Virus record (IMG/VR): IMGVR_UViG_3300037467_000139
Coordinates: 1 to 25,627 of that record
Length of the DNA stretch: 25,627 nt
Direction: 5' to 3' (one strand)
From: a virus
Lineage: Duplodnaviria > Caudoviricetes
Shown here: in pieces, positions 970-25,627 of the stretch
Position numbering within the stretch: position 1 is the stretch's first letter
How the letters are laid out: each line of letters starts with the position of its first letter
Program-made: the position numbers and the translations under genes
The notes under the pieces: generated by a model
The model's input: the letters and a program-made list of their open reading frames with translations, nothing else
Databases searched by the model: none
What the model was told of the DNA's origin: nothing

Positions 970-3900
970 TTGGCTTCTTTGCTAGACCTCATCACCGGTA
1001 AGGCCGACCAGCCAGGTGCGGGACAGCGGTTCTGGGACACTTTCGTCCATGCCGCTATCCATAGCCCTCTCGGTGGTGGAGGTCTAGCTCGGGCCTACTT
1101 CAAGACTAAGGGCTATACTGACGCCCAAATCAATCAGGCGATTAAGAACTCTGACGCCGACTTCGATAAGAAGTATTCAAAAGCTCCGGTATTCCAAGGC
1201 GTCCGCAATGGACACCCACTTGATTATGTCTCTCCGGCTAATATTGGTCGTGCCGCAACTACCCTTCTAGGGCACGTCCTCGGGGGTGTTGACCCGACTT
1301 ATGCAATTGCTCCTGGTGCCAATGCCGCCGAGCGTATTCCCGCGCAGATGGCTGTTCAGGGGGCCTCTTCGGCTGCCCGCCAGAAGGTTGAGGTTAATAC
1401 CGGTCAACGTGACCGCATCGACCCGAAGCAGGTTCTGATTGACGAGGCTCTGGGCGGATTGTTCCAGGGTGGACTAGAGGGTGGAAAGGCCGCTATTGGC
1501 AAATTTGCCAAAGATGCCGTCCTTCCGGATGAAGCTATCTCTGATATCCCTCTGGCTCCTGATGGACTGCCTGGTAACGGTTCTGTCCGTCCGATGGACC
1601 CGAAGGTCATTGCCAAAATCATGAATGACCCTGAGGCGGTTGGGCTTCCGGCTCCTGAGGCCGTTGATGCTCCGGCGATGCCTGAGGTCGCTCCTGAGGC
1701 TCCGGTAAGGAAGCCTGCGACTTCTCCTAGTGGGCTATTCATTGAGAACAAGCGTGACCCCGATGGGACGATTTATCTAAGCTACCAGCCTTCACTGAGT
1801 AAGGCTCCGGTGCCTATCAAGATGGGCATTGGCGAGGACGGGACTGCCGAAATGGCAATCGACCAGTTCTCGACGCAGGCTAATCGTCTTGGTCCGTCTA
1901 AAATCCGCGAGGCTATGTATGACCTCATGGACATGTATCCTGAAATCAAGCGCTTCGGCGGCTATCGCCGTTCGGGAGCCGGTGCAGGACGTGTTCAGGA
2001 AATCGAACCGACCCGTCCGGTAGAAGACCCGATTGGAACGCCGCCTGAAGCCGAGGCGCCGGTAACACCCGAAAGCCAGGTGACCCCTGTTGAGGAAATT
2101 CCTCAGGGACAAGGGATGCCTGCGAATGACGTCGCTCCGGATACCTTCATGGATTATCTCGGGCGGAAGTTTGCTTCTGACCCGAATTACGTTCCGACGG
2201 AAGACGAGTTCGCTCGTATCCGCCAGGTCGCTACTGACAGTCATGAACCGTTCGACCCGAGCAAGCCGCTTAGTGATGACGTCCTAACTCCGGCTGAACG
2301 GCAGGATATGGATGCTTCGGCAGATAAGCCGATTGTCGATAACACCGGTTACGAGGCCCATACGCCTTTTGTCGGTGAACCAAATGAACCTGCTAACGAC
2401 ACGTCGCTTCTCGACGCAGCTAGGAAGTTCCTTCCGAACCTTCTGTCTGATGAGCGGGGCTCGATTAATCTCGGTGACGACGCCGATGGTATCTCTCCGG
2501 TTGAGAAACTGACGCAAGCGATTGCCGATGCCCTTCCAATCAGGAATAAGCAGGGCAAGCTTTACTCTGAGGAACTCTCGAAGCGTGTCGGAAACATCGC
2601 ACAGGTTCGCAATCATACCAGCGGACTTGAAGGGTTCTATGCCGAACTAGGTCAGTTGAAAGGCGAAATGCCTAAGATTGACTTCCAGTCTATCGGCGAT
2701 AACTTCAGTCCAGAAGAAGTCAACGGCTTCATGGATATGATTAAGAACCATCCGCGACTGACGTTCTTCGAAAGCATCAACGCCCGTAAGGGCCTCCTTA
2801 AGCTCCTTCAGGGCGAACTTCCGACGAAGAGCGAACTCGCTCCGTTGTCGGCTGTCTTCCCTAAGGAAGCAATCGATGCAATTAACGCCAAGGCTCCGTT
2901 GAGCGCGATGGATATCGCAGCCAATCTCCTTGGTATTCCTCGTGCCTTGAAGGCGACGCTCGACCTTTCGGCTCCGTTCCGTCAAGGTGCGCCGTTAATC
3001 CATACGAAGGCATATTGGAAGTCGTTCGGTGCGATGTTTGGCCAGGCTTTTAGCGAGGCCAAGTATCAGGCAATCCAGAACGAGATTTACTCACGTCCAA
3101 CCTATCAGTTGATGAAGGACGCGGGACTGGCTATCACTCGGCAGGGCAAAGCTCTCACCGAACGTGAAGAGCAGTTCATGTCGAATTGGGCTGAGAAAAT
3201 CCCCGTTGCCGGACGTGTAGTCCGTGCATCTGACCGTGGCTATACAGGCTTCTTGAACAAGCTCCGTGCCGACACCTTCGATAGTCTCGTCCGAGAGGCT
3301 AGAGAAGCCGGTATCGACTTCGCTCATGACCCCAAGGCCCTACATGATATCGCGACGTTCATCAATAACGCAACCGGTCGTGGACACCTACCCGGCAAGA
3401 TATTGAACCAAGCTCAGCCTTTGCTGAGTGCTTCGTTCTTCTCGCCGCGTCTAATGGCTTCGAGGTTCAATATCCTGAACCCGAACTATTACGTCCAGTT
3501 GTCTCCGTTCGCACGGAAGCAGGCGATTAAGTCTCTTCTGGCTTACTCGTCAGCCGTGATGATGACCCTTGGTCTAGCCAAGCTAGCCGGTGCCGACGTC
3601 GAAACCGACCCGCGTTCAACGGACTTCGCGAAGATTAAGGACGGGAACACCCGTTACGACGTCACCGCTGGTTTCCAACCTTACCTTAGGGCGGGGGCTC
3701 AGTTGCTTACGGGTCAGAAGGTTACGGCGAGTGGGAAGGTGACTAATATCGGAACCGGTCCTGACGGCAAGGCTCTGATGCAGGGCAAGCTCAAGATGCA
3801 TGGTGCCGATAAGGGATACAAGCAAGACACCCGTCTTGACGTCGTGGGTCGCTTCTTTGCCAACAAGGAGGCTCCTATTCCGGCGTTCGTAAGTGAACTC

Positions 3901-9527: not shown

Positions 9528-10105
9528 TGGGAACTCATCGCGTCGGCGATGCCCTTGAAGGTTATGGACCGGACGTGCCCGCGTTCTTTTGCGGGAAGAA
9601 GTGACGTTTCGTAATACCATTTACTCATTCGTTTACCGGATGAGAACATGACAAACTCGTCCTTTTCGACGACGTTTGTGGGCTGTAGTTTTGGCAAATT
9701 TGCCAACCAGAGGCCCGTCTTCTTGTTAACCGAATGCCCGAACATCCAGGGATGAATGTATTGGTCAGGCGGTCGGATAGTCGAAGAGATAACCCCTACA
9801 GGGTTCTCGATAGCAATCTTCTCGATGGGCGCATCCATCAAGTCTTTGACGAAGATAAGAGCCTGCGTCCTATCCGTCGAATTCGCATAGGTTCTGTTAC
9901 CAGTGACGCACAAGGCAGTGCATGGGGGATGGGCAATCATTAGGTCCCAATCCTCTCCGTATGCAATGTCTAGTGCGTCAGCCTGGTAATGGTGAGGCGA
10001 CCCGTCCGAAGCAGGCAGGAGGTCACAGCTAAATGCTTCGTGACCCCTCGAACGAAATGCCTCACGCACTACACCTGAATGCTCACACGCAATCAGAACT
10101 CTCAA
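9518..10105 (-). CDS. Short phage DNA cytosine methyltransferase-like protein
   Basis: RVLIACEHSG (SAM-binding motif I variant), AHPPCT (catalytic PC), IENP, KKTGLWL, and a C-terminal RS.TF.GIA.AM..QWG. Confidence 0.75.
   Translation of the reverse strand: MRVLIACEHSGVVREAFRSRGHEAFSCDLLPASDGSPHHYQADALDIAYGEDWDLMIAHPPCTALCVTGNRTYANSTDRTQALIFVKDLMDAPIEKIAIENPVGVISSTIRPPDQYIHPWMFGHSVNKKTGLWLANLPKLQPTNVVEKDEFVMFSSGKRMSKWYYETSLLPAKERGHVRSITFKGIADAMSSQWG
9691..9706. repeat. Dispersed palindrome copy 2, TTGGCAAATTTGCCAA (coding)
   Basis: Exact 16-bp palindrome; core at 9693-9704. Confidence 0.95.
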
Positions 10106-15362: not shown

Positions 15363-15519
15363 TAGCGAATTCTTTCTTTAATCTATTGAGCATACGAAGA
15401 CGCTCGGAGCATTGGGCGTATTCAGGGCTTCCTTTGGCAAATTTGCCACGAACCCTCAGACACGCACCCCTCTCTGCGTCAATGATTGCGTATGCCTCAG
15501 AAAGGGATATCAGCGTCAC
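15325..15519 (-). CDS. Hypothetical protein, 64 aa
   Basis: Fills the gap between primase-helicase and polymerase with short overlaps; AAGGA upstream. Confidence 0.55.
   Translation of the reverse strand: MTLISLSEAYAIIDAERGACLRVRGKFAKGSPEYAQCSERLRMLNRLKKEFASVSNADQLPLGL
15435..15448. repeat. Dispersed palindrome copy 3, TGGCAAATTTGCCA (coding)
   Basis: 14-bp palindrome; core at 15436-15447. Confidence 0.95.
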
Positions 15520-21287: not shown

Positions 21288-21301
21288 TGGCAAATTTGCC
21301 A
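21288..21301. repeat. Dispersed palindrome copy 6, TGGCAAATTTGCCA (intergenic)
   Basis: 14-bp palindrome; core at 21289-21300, 12 nt before ATG 21276. Confidence 0.95.
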
Positions 21302-22322: not shown

Positions 22323-23513
22323 TTAAGCCCTCAAGACGTTAAAACTTTCGCGGTCGATGTAAATCCGGTTATCTGTGTCGTCATCAATTTCCGAGTGCCC
22401 CGAACACTTGCCACACAGCAAGAGGTCGTCGCGTTCGAAGATAGTGATACCAGGCTCACCGAATTCGACCGACTGTGAGCACCACGAACACCCATACTTC
22501 GCAAGTTCGTCGAACTTTTCCTTGTCGATGTAACCGGCGTAAGGATGGTGGTCGGTGCCAAGCCACTTGATGACGTTATCAGGTGAACGCGGGGTCTTCC
22601 CACGGGAGGAGGTCGTCGAGGTCGTCGTCGCCGTTTCCGACAATTCCCGCGTATGGATGCCTGCCCGATGGTCGTTGACGTTTATCCCGCATACGTTCCC
22701 AGGCCTGCCAAAAGGGTCGTCGCCACGGACGGCTGTGACCACCGGCTCAGGCTCCCTTCCCTTGATAGGCTTGGTCTTCGGCTTCACCTTATTCGTCGCC
22801 GTGATGAACAGCCCGACGTCGAACTTATAGTGAAGGTCTTCGTCGGTCGGGAAGAACCGGAAGCCTTGCTCGCCTTCGGCGGCGAGTTCGACATTCTCGG
22901 CACGACAGGCGGCGTCAATCATCCACCATTCGGAAGCCCAGAAGACCCGCTTATAATCCTTCGCGAAGGCATACCACATCGGGCGATGCTTGTTGCGGAG
23001 GAAGTTCAGCGACCCTTCGTTAAGGTCATACCACGTCAGTGACCATGCTCCGGTGTCTTGCGTCCGCCCTTCGGTGCAGAGTTCGATTGCCGTCTTGACA
23101 CCAAGCTTGGCAATACCCGCAATCAAGGCTTGGCTATCGACGGCGAACTTCTCGCCGATGGCGGCTTCGAGCCGGTTCCACGACGCCTGGTCGAGCGTCC
23201 CGTTATGAGCGCCGACGATATGGTCAACCTCGAACGGATGGGCGTTATAGTTCGAAATCCCACCACGCGTCGCGGCTCGGTTGTGCCCCATATAGACCCG
23301 CGAAATCCCCTCGATTACATGGGCGAATTTCTTCGTATCTAGCAGGGTGATGGGGTCGCTCGCGAGCTTGGCGATACGGACTTCGCCGGAGCCACGAACC
23401 GATGCCAAGCCGGTGCTATCCGGCCCACGGAAATAGTCGTGGACGAGCATCCGTTTGATAATTCTGTCGTCGATGCCATTCATCGAGCCAGCGATGCCGA
23501 CTAGACCGCACAT
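22323..23513 (-). CDS. Class II (Ntn) glutamine amidotransferase with C-terminal CxxC...CxxC domain
   Basis: N-terminal MCGLVG nucleophile Cys, RGPDSTG, GHNRAAT, NAHPF, HNGTL, VDS; CSWC...CGKC. Confidence 0.92.
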   Translation of the reverse strand: MCGLVGIAGSMNGIDDRIIKRMLVHDYFRGPDSTGLASVRGSGEVRIAKLASDPITLLDTKKFAHVIEGISRVYMGHNRAATRGGISNYNAHPFEVDHIVGAHNGTLDQASWNRLEAAIGEKFAVDSQALIAGIAKLGVKTAIELCTEGRTQDTGAWSLTWYDLNEGSLNFLRNKHRPMWYAFAKDYKRVFWASEWWMIDAACRAENVELAAEGEQGFRFFPTDEDLHYKFDVGLFITATNKVKPKTKPIKGREPEPVVTAVRGDDPFGRPGNVCGINVNDHRAGIHTRELSETATTTSTTSSRGKTPRSPDNVIKWLGTDHHPYAGYIDKEKFDELAKYGCSWCSQSVEFGEPGITIFERDDLLLCGKCSGHSEIDDDTDNRIYIDRESFNVLRA

Positions 23514-24625
23514 TAGTTCTTCTCCTTCTCGCCCGCAGGCAGTTCGACTGGCTTCAAAATGTCCCGCTCAGCCAAGAGGTCGGGTTTCATCCGGAGGTTC
23601 CCGTCAGTCCATTCAAGGTCTGGATTAGCAAACACGAGTTCTTCCAGAATTTCGAGCGTCCACTTCGTGAAATAGTGGTAACCTTCGTATTCAGGATGCC
23701 CTTGGATACCGATGCAACACGTATCACGATACCAGAAGGCTTCGATATCGGCGTGACTACCGACACTGTAATTCTTGTTGTTCAGTGCCCGCTCGTGCGA
23801 CTTCGCCGACGTCCCGATGATTTCCATCCCGCCACGGACGTTCTCAATCACCATCTGGTGATGCACCGACGAGATTTTCTCCAGGTGCTTGTTGTTGAGA
23901 ATATCCCACATCGAGTGGTCGCCGTAGTGACCATCGACGTCCTGATACAGCTTTCCGCCGTTCATGACGTGAAGGAACTGCGCCCCACGGCAGATGCCAA
24001 GCATCGGAATGCCGTGCTCCTTGCACATGAGATACAAGTCCATATCGGTCTTGTCTCGCGACGGCGACGGCCATGTGCTGTCGTGACGGGTCTCACCATA
24101 GAGCACAGGGTCAACGTCAGACCCGCCGCCGAAGACAATGAGGTCGGCTTCGAGGACGCTTTCGGCACGACGACATTGAGCCCTTGCGAACATCTTGGCG
24201 AAGCGGGCTTCGTCATCGGCGACAGCGGGGTCAGGCTGGACGAAAACCTTGAAGCATAACGTCGGATACGTCAGGCTGCTGTCCTTGATGAGTGTCACCG
24301 GTCGCGTCTTGACCAGCAGCTTGTCTTCTTTCGGCTTCTTCTGCACCGCAGAACTCCTTAGAAAGTCGGGGATATTATCCTGGGCCGGATAAGTCTTGCC
24401 GTTAACTCGGCCCAGACTGTCGATGAACGGGACGTCATCAGGCACCCCTGGCTTGCCATACAAGGCAATGAGTTCTTCCGTGACGTTATCGTTCGACAGG
24501 TCGCCGACACGCATCGCCATTGGTTCCTCCGATGGAAAAGTTATGAGGTTAGCGGATGAGGAATTCATCGGCTTCCGCTTCCTTCGATTGTTTGTGGAAC
24601 GAAACTTTTTGCTTCCCTTGCCCAT
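23513..24625 (-). CDS. Class I glutamine amidotransferase / peptidase C26 (PuuD-like gamma-glutamyl hydrolase) with long N-terminal extension
   Basis: FGGGSDVDP, GICRGAQ (Cys), HHQ, QGHPE (His-Glu). Start at 24625 (GAGGAG) or 24520 (GGAGG). Confidence 0.88.
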   Translation of the reverse strand: MGKGSKKFRSTNNRRKRKPMNSSSANLITFPSEEPMAMRVGDLSNDNVTEELIALYGKPGVPDDVPFIDSLGRVNGKTYPAQDNIPDFLRSSAVQKKPKEDKLLVKTRPVTLIKDSSLTYPTLCFKVFVQPDPAVADDEARFAKMFARAQCRRAESVLEADLIVFGGGSDVDPVLYGETRHDSTWPSPSRDKTDMDLYLMCKEHGIPMLGICRGAQFLHVMNGGKLYQDVDGHYGDHSMWDILNNKHLEKISSVHHQMVIENVRGGMEIIGTSAKSHERALNNKNYSVGSHADIEAFWYRDTCCIGIQGHPEYEGYHYFTKWTLEILEELVFANPDLEWTDGNLRMKPDLLAERDILKPVELPAGEKEKN

Positions 24626-24761
24626 CGGGCGGCTCCTCTTTATTTACGACGAAACTTGCGATGCGGATGAGCATTCCACGGGCGTATTCCGTGTCGCCGC
24701 ACCAATGAAGCCAGTAGGCAATTTCAAGCGCCTCCTGGGGTGTTTCAGGTCTGCGTTGCAT
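24549..24761 (-). CDS. Hypothetical protein, 70 aa
   Basis: AAAGGA RBS directly after a palindrome copy. Overlaps the GATase only if the 24625 start is used. Confidence 0.5.
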   Translation of the reverse strand: MQRRPETPQEALEIAYWLHWCGDTEYARGMLIRIASFVVNKEEPPDGQGKQKVSFHKQSKEAEADEFLIR

Positions 24762-24771
24762 GGCTTTCCTT

Positions 24772-24787
24772 TTGGCAAATTTGCCAA
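24772..24787. repeat. Dispersed palindrome copy 7, TTGGCAAATTTGCCAA (upstream of the 70-aa ORF)
   Basis: Exact 16-bp palindrome; core at 24774-24785, 12 nt before ATG 24761. Confidence 0.95.
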
Positions 24788-25385
24788 CCCTTGAGTGGAC
24801 ACAGTGATACCCTTAGCGGGTGTAAATCCCACTATGGCTCCTGCGACTTAACCAGGTTCACATTTCAGGGAAAACGGCTTATCAAAGGCCAACGCCATAT
24901 AAGATAGCCGTTTAGGACGTCACTGTGCCCGCTAAAGGATTGGCGGCGGCACATCTATCACGACGAAGGAACAGGGGGATTGATTGTTTGGGGTTGGAGC
25001 CTGCACGACCAACCCCCCTATCCTTTAGCCTTATCCGCCTACGGTGCGGCCTCGGCTGGTTGGCGGTTCTTCACCGCCTGAGACTACTACCTCGACATGC
25101 ACTCCTGCAAGTATCCTTCCCTCTCCAAGACTTCCTTAGCGGGTGCGTCAGGAAGTCGCACTCTTGGAGTTCGTTGAAACTAGGGCGCGGACTTGTGTAG
25201 GCCGGACGAATTACACGAGGGGGCGGTTCGCAATGTGCAAATGAGCACCCGCCATTAAAGGTTCTTTGCTACCACCTGATACGTTGCCTGACGCTACAGT
25301 TGTTTCCCACTTGAGAGTGGCCCAGGAGCGGGAGGGACTTGCACCCTCCTCACTTAGAGGCGGCTTCTTGGCCGAGTGAAGTAGC
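24783..25385 (-). ncRNA. Candidate large structured RNA / 5' leader (~600 nt), family unassigned
   Basis: No convincing ORF. At least nine helices, including a 25-bp imperfect stem (24783-24807/24920-24944) and a T-loop-like GGAGGG-UGCAAGU-CCCUCC hairpin (25331-25349). Confidence 0.55.
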
Positions 25386-25592
25386 CTATTCGACGACGAT
25401 TTTTGCTTTGTCAGCCAGAGCTTTGCGGGTGTGTATCCGCCTGCCTTCTCTCCATGTTTCCTTGTCGTCACGGGACATATGGAGAGGAGCGAATTGCATA
25501 TGACTGTGGTTCATTCGCTTTTCCTGACACCAGGAACAGGGACACTCACGCCAATCCCATTTCTGATGCAGGGCGACCATCCGGTCAAACAA
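25386..25592 (-). CDS. Small hypothetical protein with CxCxxC (start uncertain)
   Basis: Same strand as the early arm; ECPCSWCQ motif. Confidence 0.45.
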   Translation of the reverse strand: MFDRMVALHQKWDWRECPCSWCQEKRMNHSHMQFAPLHMSRDDKETWREGRRIHTRKALADKAKIVVE

Positions 25593-25627
25593 GGCGGGAA
25601 CAAGGAGTTCCTGAACCCGCCTGTTGA

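What the first reader, a model, noticed from the sequence alone, without database searches (positions are those of the whole stretch)
24783..25385. ~600-nt ORF-poor, densely base-paired region directly upstream of the amide-ligase module: candidate new large phage ncRNA
Seen: this is the largest non-coding gap in an otherwise tightly packed window. Helices: 24783-24807/24920-24944 (21 of 25 Watson-Crick, plus 2 G-U on the - strand), 24872-24883/24903-24913, 24990-24997/25009-25016, 25062-25067/25073-25078, 25123-25136/25150-25169, 25192-25199/25212-25219, 25307-25311/25316-25320, 25331-25336/25344-25349, 25350-25354/25375-25379, 25293-25297/25381-25385. It begins right after the stop at 25386 and ends at a palindrome copy next to the first RBS of the module. 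Known: large structured RNAs such as ROOL and GOLLD occur in phages, but I cannot assign this one to any family. Inference: a standalone RNA, an elaborate regulatory leader, or an RNA partner of the ligase module.
Basis: partly seen in the sequence, partly recalled or inferred. Interest (0 to 1): 0.8.

Follow-up and report, generated by a model that had tools for sequence, protein, structure and literature searches.

The report
Phage tRNA-elbow mimic RNA family
The gap in front of this soil phage's amide-ligase genes holds a conserved folded non-coding element, found in about forty related phage sequences and in no RNA family that I searched, whose RNA likely copies the corner (elbow) of a tRNA and carries a second conserved domain where a tRNA would carry its amino acid; it likely works as a free tRNA look-alike, which is untested.

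Summary
The structured region is real, but the conserved unit is about 307 nt (25387-25081, minus strand), not 600 nt. Homologues (144-416 nt) sit at the same place in a Zobellviridae-like phage clade: 39 of 140 sources matched my model at E<1e-4, 15 of them outside the training set. In the core alignment 17 of 23 pairs show two-sided changes (0 of 500 shuffles). Order: terminal helix, GG strand, tRNA T-arm, 8-bp acceptor-like helix, conserved bulged domain. The GG strand covaries with the T-loop (G18/U55 in 38, A18/G55 in 3), as expected for a tRNA elbow, although one origin of the change is not excluded. No Rfam family matches. It fails tests for Y RNA (no Ro60, no D arm), tmRNA, tRNA and T4 RNAC. 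It is accessory: 19 of 58 clade members lack it and keep the adjacent amidotransferase gene, so it is no obligate ligase partner. The distal 160-nt stem domain has no homologue. Expression and function are untested.

The parts
25081..25387 (-). Conserved structured RNA core, closed by terminal helix P1 (25387-25380 with 25088-25081, extended by 25376-25371 with 25096-25091)
   Evidence: homologues 144-416 nt
25363..25366 (-). D-loop-like strand (NGGY in 35 of 41 rows, CGGA in 3, AAGY here and in 2 others); predicted to dock into the T-loop
   Evidence: G with U55 in 38 of 38, A with G55 in 3 of 3; positions placed by hand for 36 of 41 rows, by pattern for 5
25331..25349 (-). tRNA-type T-arm (6-bp stem, 7-nt loop; U54 and C56 invariant)
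25323..25330 (-). Acceptor-like helix P3, strand following the T-arm
25100..25107 (-). Acceptor-like helix P3, returning strand
   Evidence: 8 of 8 pairs here; pair types vary at positions 5-8 across homologues
25307..25320 (-). Hairpin P4 (absent in the shortest members)
   Evidence: 4 of 5 pairs with two-sided change
25196..25298 (-). Conserved bulged domain P5-P6 with variable extension P7; most invariant bases outside the T-arm lie here
   Evidence: Y-R pair 13 C-G and 12 U-A
25108..25195 (-). Optional domain P8 with a recurring GCG/AA internal loop
   Evidence: read by eye; no pair counts run
25027..25078 (-). Two short hairpins after the core; the first is shared with L004, the second recurs inside P7 of L010 and L038
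24962..25026 (-). Long G/C-rich hairpin, likely 3' boundary; a long hairpin follows P1 in at least 17 of 32 homologues
24783..24944 (-). Window-specific 162-nt long-stem domain; no homologue found; G-U pairs favour the minus strand
24773..24786 (.). Palindrome TGGCAAATTTGCCA, one of 5 copies in the window; likely a DNA operator, separate from the RNA
25386..25514 (-). Possible 42-aa ORF whose stop codon overlaps the first pair of P1
   Evidence: sequence; no Pfam match
24549..24761 (-). 70-aa ORF of unknown function, first gene after the RNA; a similar small ORF is also present in relatives that lack the RNA
23513..24625 (-). Class I glutamine amidotransferase, first enzyme gene of the amide-ligase module

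Best explanation
The 5' half of the gap is a conserved structured non-coding element that likely yields a stand-alone phage RNA mimicking the tRNA elbow, and it would act as a decoy or scaffold for a host factor that recognises tRNA shape. Shown by sequence comparison: the helices, the tRNA-type T-loop, the lack of a conserved reading frame, confinement to one phage clade among the collections scanned, and repeated loss. Inferred: the GG strand docks into the T-loop; the T-arm stacks on the 8-bp helix P3; the RNA is co-transcribed with upstream genes and cut out by host RNases, with P1 and the downstream hairpin protecting its ends; the conserved P5-P6 domain, placed where the CCA end would be, binds a second partner. 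Target unknown: likely candidates are a tRNA-directed defence nuclease or sensor, or a translation or tRNA-processing factor that matters only in some hosts, which would explain the patchy distribution.
For: Covariation: 17 of 23 pairs two-sided, 93% paired, 0 of 500 shuffles, slid controls 39-48%; 18 of 22 in the 41-row model-fitted alignment. T-loop U54 and C56 invariant in 41 of 41; the upstream purine switches G to A in the 3 rows with G55 and in no other. This fits published T-loop rules: G18 with U55 in tRNA (PMC7912444, passages) and an intercalating A with G at loop position 2 (bioRxiv 10.1101/2022.12.26.521914, passages). Long terminal helices of unrelated sequence close every member examined. 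RBS unpaired and outside the fold; in 10 of 32 it follows P1 within about 25 nt. The downstream gene differs in L035, L104 and L011. One strong match per genome in 10 of 10 RNA-bearing virus records. A predicted tRNA lies directly upstream in L158. Precedent: T4 RNAC and RNAD, phage RNAs of unknown role from the tRNA region (PMC3014915, PMC9697503, passages).
Against: No expression data and no binding partner shown. The A18/G55 change may be a single event: the RNA tree gives 3 changes but does not reject one clade (p-AU 0.56), so the Fisher p of 9e-5 overstates it. T-stem plus P3 is mostly 13-14 nt (29 of 32 rows), not the 12 bp of a standard tRNA, and there is no D stem or anticodon arm. P1 and P3 were picked by best-duplex scans without shuffle controls; some picks were corrected by hand and about four P3 picks were off-register. 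The position directly upstream of the same operon is strongly conserved, which a cis role also predicts. L002 has lost P5b-P6 and L146 lacks P8, so neither domain is indispensable. Full-length folding z-scores are modest (mean -1.9; 11 of 32 below -2).
Confidence: 0.5

Rival explanations
1. Cis-acting processing and stabilising element: the elbow recruits RNase P, which would cut just 5' of the returning P3 strand and leave the module mRNA with its new 5' end clamped in P3 and P1.
For: Always on the sense strand, upstream of the module; RBS within about 25 nt of P1 in 10 of 32; a G precedes the returning strand in most rows; M. smegmatis YrlA is cut by RNase P in its acceptor-like stem (PMC4201824, passages).
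Against: A long hairpin, and in W, L004, L013, L015 and L039 the operator-like palindrome, separate the RNA from the next gene. The conserved P5-P6 domain is not needed for such a role. The stack is 13-14 nt; that paper names a 7-bp acceptor stem as a major RNase P determinant.
Confidence: 0.22
2. RNA cofactor or substrate of the amide-ligase module (a tRNA-like carrier or scaffold for amidotransferase or ligase chemistry).
For: Fixed position at the head of the module in all members found, including by DNA-only scans. The module's product is unknown (PMC10580990, passages).
Against: Absent at this site in 19 of 58 clade members that keep the adjacent amidotransferase gene, from complete genomes G001-G003 and from TC6, CW02 and phiM6. 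No conserved CCA end to charge. No protein family tracks the RNA in 17 genomes.
Confidence: 0.1
3. Ligand-sensing riboswitch-like leader controlling the glutamine-using operon.
For: Invariant unpaired bases in P5-P6 and a T-loop tertiary contact, as in FMN and cobalamin riboswitches.
Against: No terminator with a U tract in the window gap, no RBS sequestration, a strong closing P1, different downstream genes; no Rfam riboswitch match.
Confidence: 0.07
4. One 600-nt ornate RNA of the ROOL/GOLLD type.
For: The whole gap folds well and no promoter-like site was found within it.
Against: Only the 307-nt core is conserved; the distal 162 nt has no homologue in 444 loci; no Rfam ROOL or GOLLD match.
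Confidence: 0.05
5. Relic of a mobile RNA, for example a domain of a group II intron, kept only as a folded spacer.
For: Patchy presence (11 changes on the amidotransferase tree); modular gain and loss of hairpins; a GGGAAGG strand in P8 that recalls group II intron domain I (recalled, no call).
Against: No match to any Rfam family at E up to 10 apart from sub-threshold noise; no intron ends or domain V seen; one copy at one site; invariant tertiary positions across deep divergence imply selection.
Confidence: 0.06

Closest known systems
YrlA bacterial and phage Y RNAs (Chen et al. 2014, PMC4201824; passages and section 6 read)
   Same: T arm followed by an acceptor-like stem that is closed rather than ending in CCA; both RNA ends lie in a terminal stem; also found in phages.
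   Different: No D arm after the acceptor stem: the GG partner lies 5' of the T-arm. A large conserved domain sits in the acceptor loop. No GNCGAA motif seen and no Ro60 gene in 5 complete genomes.
T4 RNAC and RNAD (species 1 and 2 RNAs; PMC3014915 and PMC9697503, passages; annotation)
   Same: Phage small stable RNAs of unknown function; RNAC has a tRNA T-arm. RNAD carries a 13-nt strand matching this family's P6 3' strand at 12 of 13 positions, with an AACG partner strand.
   Different: RNAC has its T-arm at the 3' end in normal tRNA order. Model R1 matches only the T hairpin of RNAC and nothing in RNAD. In RNAD the two strands come in reverse order and show no compensatory change among 6 phages, so the likeness is a lead only.
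Two-piece (circularly permuted) tmRNA precursor (recalled)
   Same: T-arm and acceptor 3' strand precede an intervening segment and the acceptor 5' strand.
   Different: No conserved CCA, no conserved tag frame, no tmRNA call by ARAGORN or Rfam; here the intervening segment is the most conserved part.
ROOL and GOLLD RNAs (bioRxiv 10.1101/2024.12.08.627333, passages)
   Same: Phage-encoded, highly structured, function unknown, often near tRNA genes.
   Different: Much smaller (144-416 nt); no Rfam match; built round a tRNA elbow.

Membership tests
YrlA Y RNA | Ro60 (TROVE) gene nearby | tested here: not met
   0 of 5 complete RNA-bearing genomes; control rang in 2 of 14. The half of the window's own genome outside the window could not be seen.
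YrlA Y RNA | T arm, then acceptor-like stem, inside a terminal stem | tested here: met
   order in PMC4201824 section 6
YrlA Y RNA | Conserved D stem-loop 3' of the acceptor stem and a 5' GNCGAA motif | tested here: not met
   junction after P3 is short and variable; upstream motif is NGGY; no Rfam match
tmRNA (one- or two-piece) | Chargeable acceptor end with CCA and a tag reading frame | tested here: not met
   CCA varies to CCG, CCU, CUA, CUG and is paired in P4; no conserved frame; no ARAGORN tmRNA in 168 loci
tRNA | T-loop consensus with D-loop GG contact | tested here: met
   by sequence and covariation only; the contact itself is inferred
tRNA | Cloverleaf with D stem, anticodon arm and 12-bp acceptor plus T stack | tested here: not met
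   no anticodon arm; stack 13-14 nt in 29 of 32 rows; ARAGORN negative
T4 RNAC/RNAD | Sequence and structure homology | tested here: not met
   model R1 finds only a 15-nt T hairpin in RNAC and no match in RNAD
ROOL / GOLLD | Match to the Rfam model and a length of roughly 600-800 nt | tested here: not met
   lengths
Riboswitch | Expression platform (terminator or RBS sequestration) | tested here: not met
Riboswitch | Ligand binding | not testable with these tools
   needs in-line probing
Any stable ncRNA | Discrete transcript during infection | not testable with these tools
   only DNA contigs could be laid

The most novel reading that the evidence does not exclude
A new class of phage tRNA mimic: an elbow built from a 5' GG strand and a T-arm, with a separate conserved RNA domain grafted onto the acceptor end. 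It would bridge or jam a host tRNA-recognising machine, such as a tRNA-cleaving defence system or the ribosome, making it an RNA-only counter-defence or host-takeover factor; or it would be the tRNA-like carrier for the unsolved phage amide-ligase pathway. Its P6 module may be shared, in permuted form, with T4 RNAD, whose function is also unknown.
Probability: 0.3. Interest if true: 0.88.

Novelty: new variant of a known kind. Interest (0 to 1): 0.68.

Why it matters
It adds an uncatalogued, well-covarying RNA family with a tRNA-mimic topology unlike Y RNA, tmRNA or T4 RNAC, and supplies a natural compensatory change (G18/U55 to A18/G55) that makes the elbow directly testable. Minimal members of about 145 nt suit structure work. 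Close relatives with and without the RNA offer a natural comparison for function. If it is a decoy for tRNA-directed defence or translation factors, it would be a rare RNA-only phage counter-measure and could give a handle on the long-unexplained T4 stable RNAs.

Tried and rejected
Rfam: window at E up to 1, none; gap at E up to 10, six sub-threshold matches, among them Tymovirus TLS 14.6 bits against a cut-off of 40 and twister-sister 13.9 against 34; 12 homologue loci, one weak tRNA match; L005 noise only; L002 a T hairpin only. BLASTN against cultured phages: nothing. Sequencing runs: no RNA holder listed; this says nothing on expression. GTDB scan: 1 of 7 matches real, a phage contig in a MAG; the other 6 scored 13.4 bits or less. 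Protein partner: no family present in all 12 RNA-bearing and absent from the 5 RNA-lacking genomes; BLASTP only, shadow ORFs included, and the middle of the output was cut. ESM Atlas gave no function for the two flanking proteins. A tRNA control for the A18/G55 rule was uninformative, since none of 29 tRNAs had G55. Pairing of the GG strand with P4 was rejected because it mismatches in the three A variants. The scan for the distal domain gave 6 matches; none scored in the profile search and the 4 viewed looked unrelated. Likenesses to REP repeats, group II intron domain I, the cobalamin riboswitch, raiA and rRNA segments were recalled from memory and are not backed by any Rfam match. Literature: 10 searches showed no description of this RNA. 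In Fremin et al. 2023 (PMC10690425) four supplement files were searched without a hit, but two archives and three large files could not be read, so a fragment may be listed there as an unnamed candidate.

Full report
Context. The window is about half of a T7-like podophage genome. The minus-strand block carries two glutamine amidotransferases, a COOH-NH2 ligase, an amidoligase and an ATP-grasp protein, followed by primase/helicase and DNA polymerase. The nearest cultured relatives include Zobellviridae such as PA11, TC6 and CW02, at under 40% identity for the amidotransferase. The finding is the gap upstream of that block.

Observation. The gap folds better than shuffles on both strands, more so on the minus strand. 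Rfam and ARAGORN find nothing. Two DNA contigs span the region without a difference (possibly the source data).

Homologues. BLASTN of cultured phages found nothing, so I fetched loci through the adjacent amidotransferase. nhmmer with the gap gave 26 hits at E up to 5 in 168 loci, all on the sense strand, the best at 2e-29; iteration gave 57 hits. A covariance model of the core (25 sequences) matched 39 of 140 sources at E below 1e-4, of which 15 were not training sequences, and gave weaker matches at the same site in L094, L034, L137 and L032. Several loci are near-identical copies. DNA-only scans pointed to the same clade: 8 of 8 and 2 of 2 viral matches, 9 of 10 (the tenth is a tRNA-like gene) and 1 of 7 in GTDB, itself a phage contig. 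These patterns came from the known members, so distant relatives could be missed.

Structure. The order is: P1 5' strand; NGGY strand; a linker that usually ends in UAAG; T-arm; P3 first strand; hairpin P4; bulged domain P5-P6 with variable P7; optional P8; P3 returning strand; P1 3' strand. On the MAFFT alignment, 17 of 23 named pairs change on both sides and 93% of cells pair; 0 of 500 shuffles reach this and slid controls give 39-48%. The structure was drawn from these same sequences, which favours it over the controls. The model-fitted 41-row alignment gives 18 of 22. RNAalifold recovered the T stem and P5b-P6 unaided. P3 forms 8 of 8 pairs in 18, 7 in 11 and 6 in 3 of 32 sequences, with varied pair types, but this was a best-duplex scan without control and about four picks were off-register. 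P1 is 6-16 bp of unrelated sequence; five boundaries were set by hand. Spacing between conserved blocks falls in all three frames (13, 11, 6) and no frame stays open across members. In the window the core spans 25387-25081.

The elbow. U54 and C56 are invariant in 41 of 41 sequences, as is the second G of the upstream strand. The first purine is G in all 38 rows with U55 and A in all 3 rows with G55 (window, L004, L092) (motif positions placed by hand for 36 rows, with matching flanks in G-bearing relatives). In tRNA, G18 contacts U55 and G19 pairs with C56 (PMC7912444 and PMC4810234, passages). In UGNRA T-loops the inserted base is almost always A and contacts the G at loop position 2 (bioRxiv 10.1101/2022.12.26.521914, passages). 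The switch is therefore what a D/T elbow predicts. Against over-reading: the three carriers sit apart on the amidotransferase tree and need 3 changes on the RNA tree, but a single origin is not rejected (p-AU 0.56).

What it is not. Not a tRNA: no anticodon arm, a stack of mostly 13-14 nt, CCA not conserved. Not tmRNA. Not a Y RNA: the T-then-acceptor order is shared with YrlA (PMC4201824), but there is no D arm at the YrlA position and no Ro60 in 5 of 5 complete genomes. Not T4 RNAC or RNAD by model search, although RNAD carries a strand matching the P6 3' strand at 12 of 13 bases, with an AACG partner in reverse order; both strands are nearly invariant in six T4-like phages. I saw this after the fact and it shows no compensatory change.

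Relation to the ligase module. The RNA always lies at the head of the module, but 19 of 58 clade members lack it there, in most cases with the flanking genes abutting. Three complete genomes have no match better than E 0.45, and TC6, CW02 and phiM6 have at most a T-hairpin match. On a quick amidotransferase tree (67 rows, not all loci) the deepest branches carry the RNA and the label changes 11 times, at least 4 forced by well-supported branches, which suggests repeated loss. No protein family tracked the RNA in 17 genomes. The RBS of the next gene is unpaired; at least 17 of 32 members have a long hairpin after P1 and 10 of 32 run straight into the RBS. In five members an operator-like palindrome sits between RNA and RBS. 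No sigma-70 promoter was found in 23500-25627, so the RNA is likely co-transcribed and processed.

The rest of the gap. Hairpins at 25078-24962 are shared with L004, and one recurs inside P7 of L010 and L038. The 162-nt domain at 24944-24783 folds very well but has no homologue in 444 loci; it remains unexplained.

Mechanism. Most likely a free tRNA-elbow mimic with a second binding domain, acting as decoy or scaffold for a host tRNA-recognising factor (0.5). Next is a cis RNase P processing clamp (0.22). That it is a selected, structured non-coding element I put at about 0.95, and the elbow at about 0.8. Expression, processing and partners are all untested.

Novelty. No Rfam family, no earlier scan note by sequence, and no description in 10 literature searches of a library that lacks most subscription journals. 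Parts of the Fremin 2023 supplement could not be read. Papers were seen as passages only, plus section 6 of PMC4201824; Iyer et al. 2009 was seen only as cited in PMC10580990. Verdict: a new RNA family within a known kind (phage tRNA mimics of unknown function), interest 0.68.

Noticed in passing
window 1497-1510, 9692-9705, 15435-15448, 21288-21301, 24773-24786: Five identical copies of the palindrome TGGCAAATTTGCCA (0 expected by chance). Variants with a 2-3 nt spacer occur up to 7 times per 11 kb in related phages, often just before an RBS. Likely a phage-wide operator.
   Followed up: partly
L002 6250-6380; L038 3720-3919; L006 2701-2864; L004 1112-1233; L105 4411-4506; L005 1051-1126; L421, L422; L444 501-525: A second conserved structured motif in the early region: a hairpin with a GGGUCGC start plus a UGCAA-type T-loop hairpin often followed by ACAGUUU. 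It lies directly upstream of the main RNA in L002 and L105 and in the same gap in L038. Its first hairpin resembles the 5' hairpin of T4 RNAD. Not found in the window.
   Followed up: partly
L447 1554-1672 (T4 RNAD): Carries a strand matching the P6 3' strand at 12 of 13 bases and a downstream AACG partner, in reverse order; nearly invariant in six T4-like phages.
   Followed up: partly
L158 436-510: A tRNA-like gene with a UCA anticodon (ARAGORN: SeC) ends 4 nt before the RNA; possibly a TGA suppressor.
   Followed up: no
window 25134-25149 and L035 3673-3688: An identical 16-nt hairpin segment in P8 of two distant members; a 12-nt part recurs at window 24811-24822, and a complement lies at 24928-24938, allowing alternative pairing.
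   Followed up: partly
window 24885-24910, plus strand: The distal domain carries, on the opposite strand, a near copy of the minimal P7 loop seen in L146, L005 and L164; noticed after the fact and untested.
   Followed up: no
L031, L033, L137, L004: A subfamily in which the G-C pair and CAA bulge of P5b-P6 become a U-A pair and CCC.
   Followed up: partly
L365 about 2990-3060, minus strand: A tRNA-like gene with a 9-bp acceptor stem and short D arm in a 171-kb viral contig.
   Followed up: no
L049, L050, L064, L065, L070, L072: More distant relatives without the RNA carry tRNA genes (mostly Arg) in the region upstream of the module.
   Followed up: no
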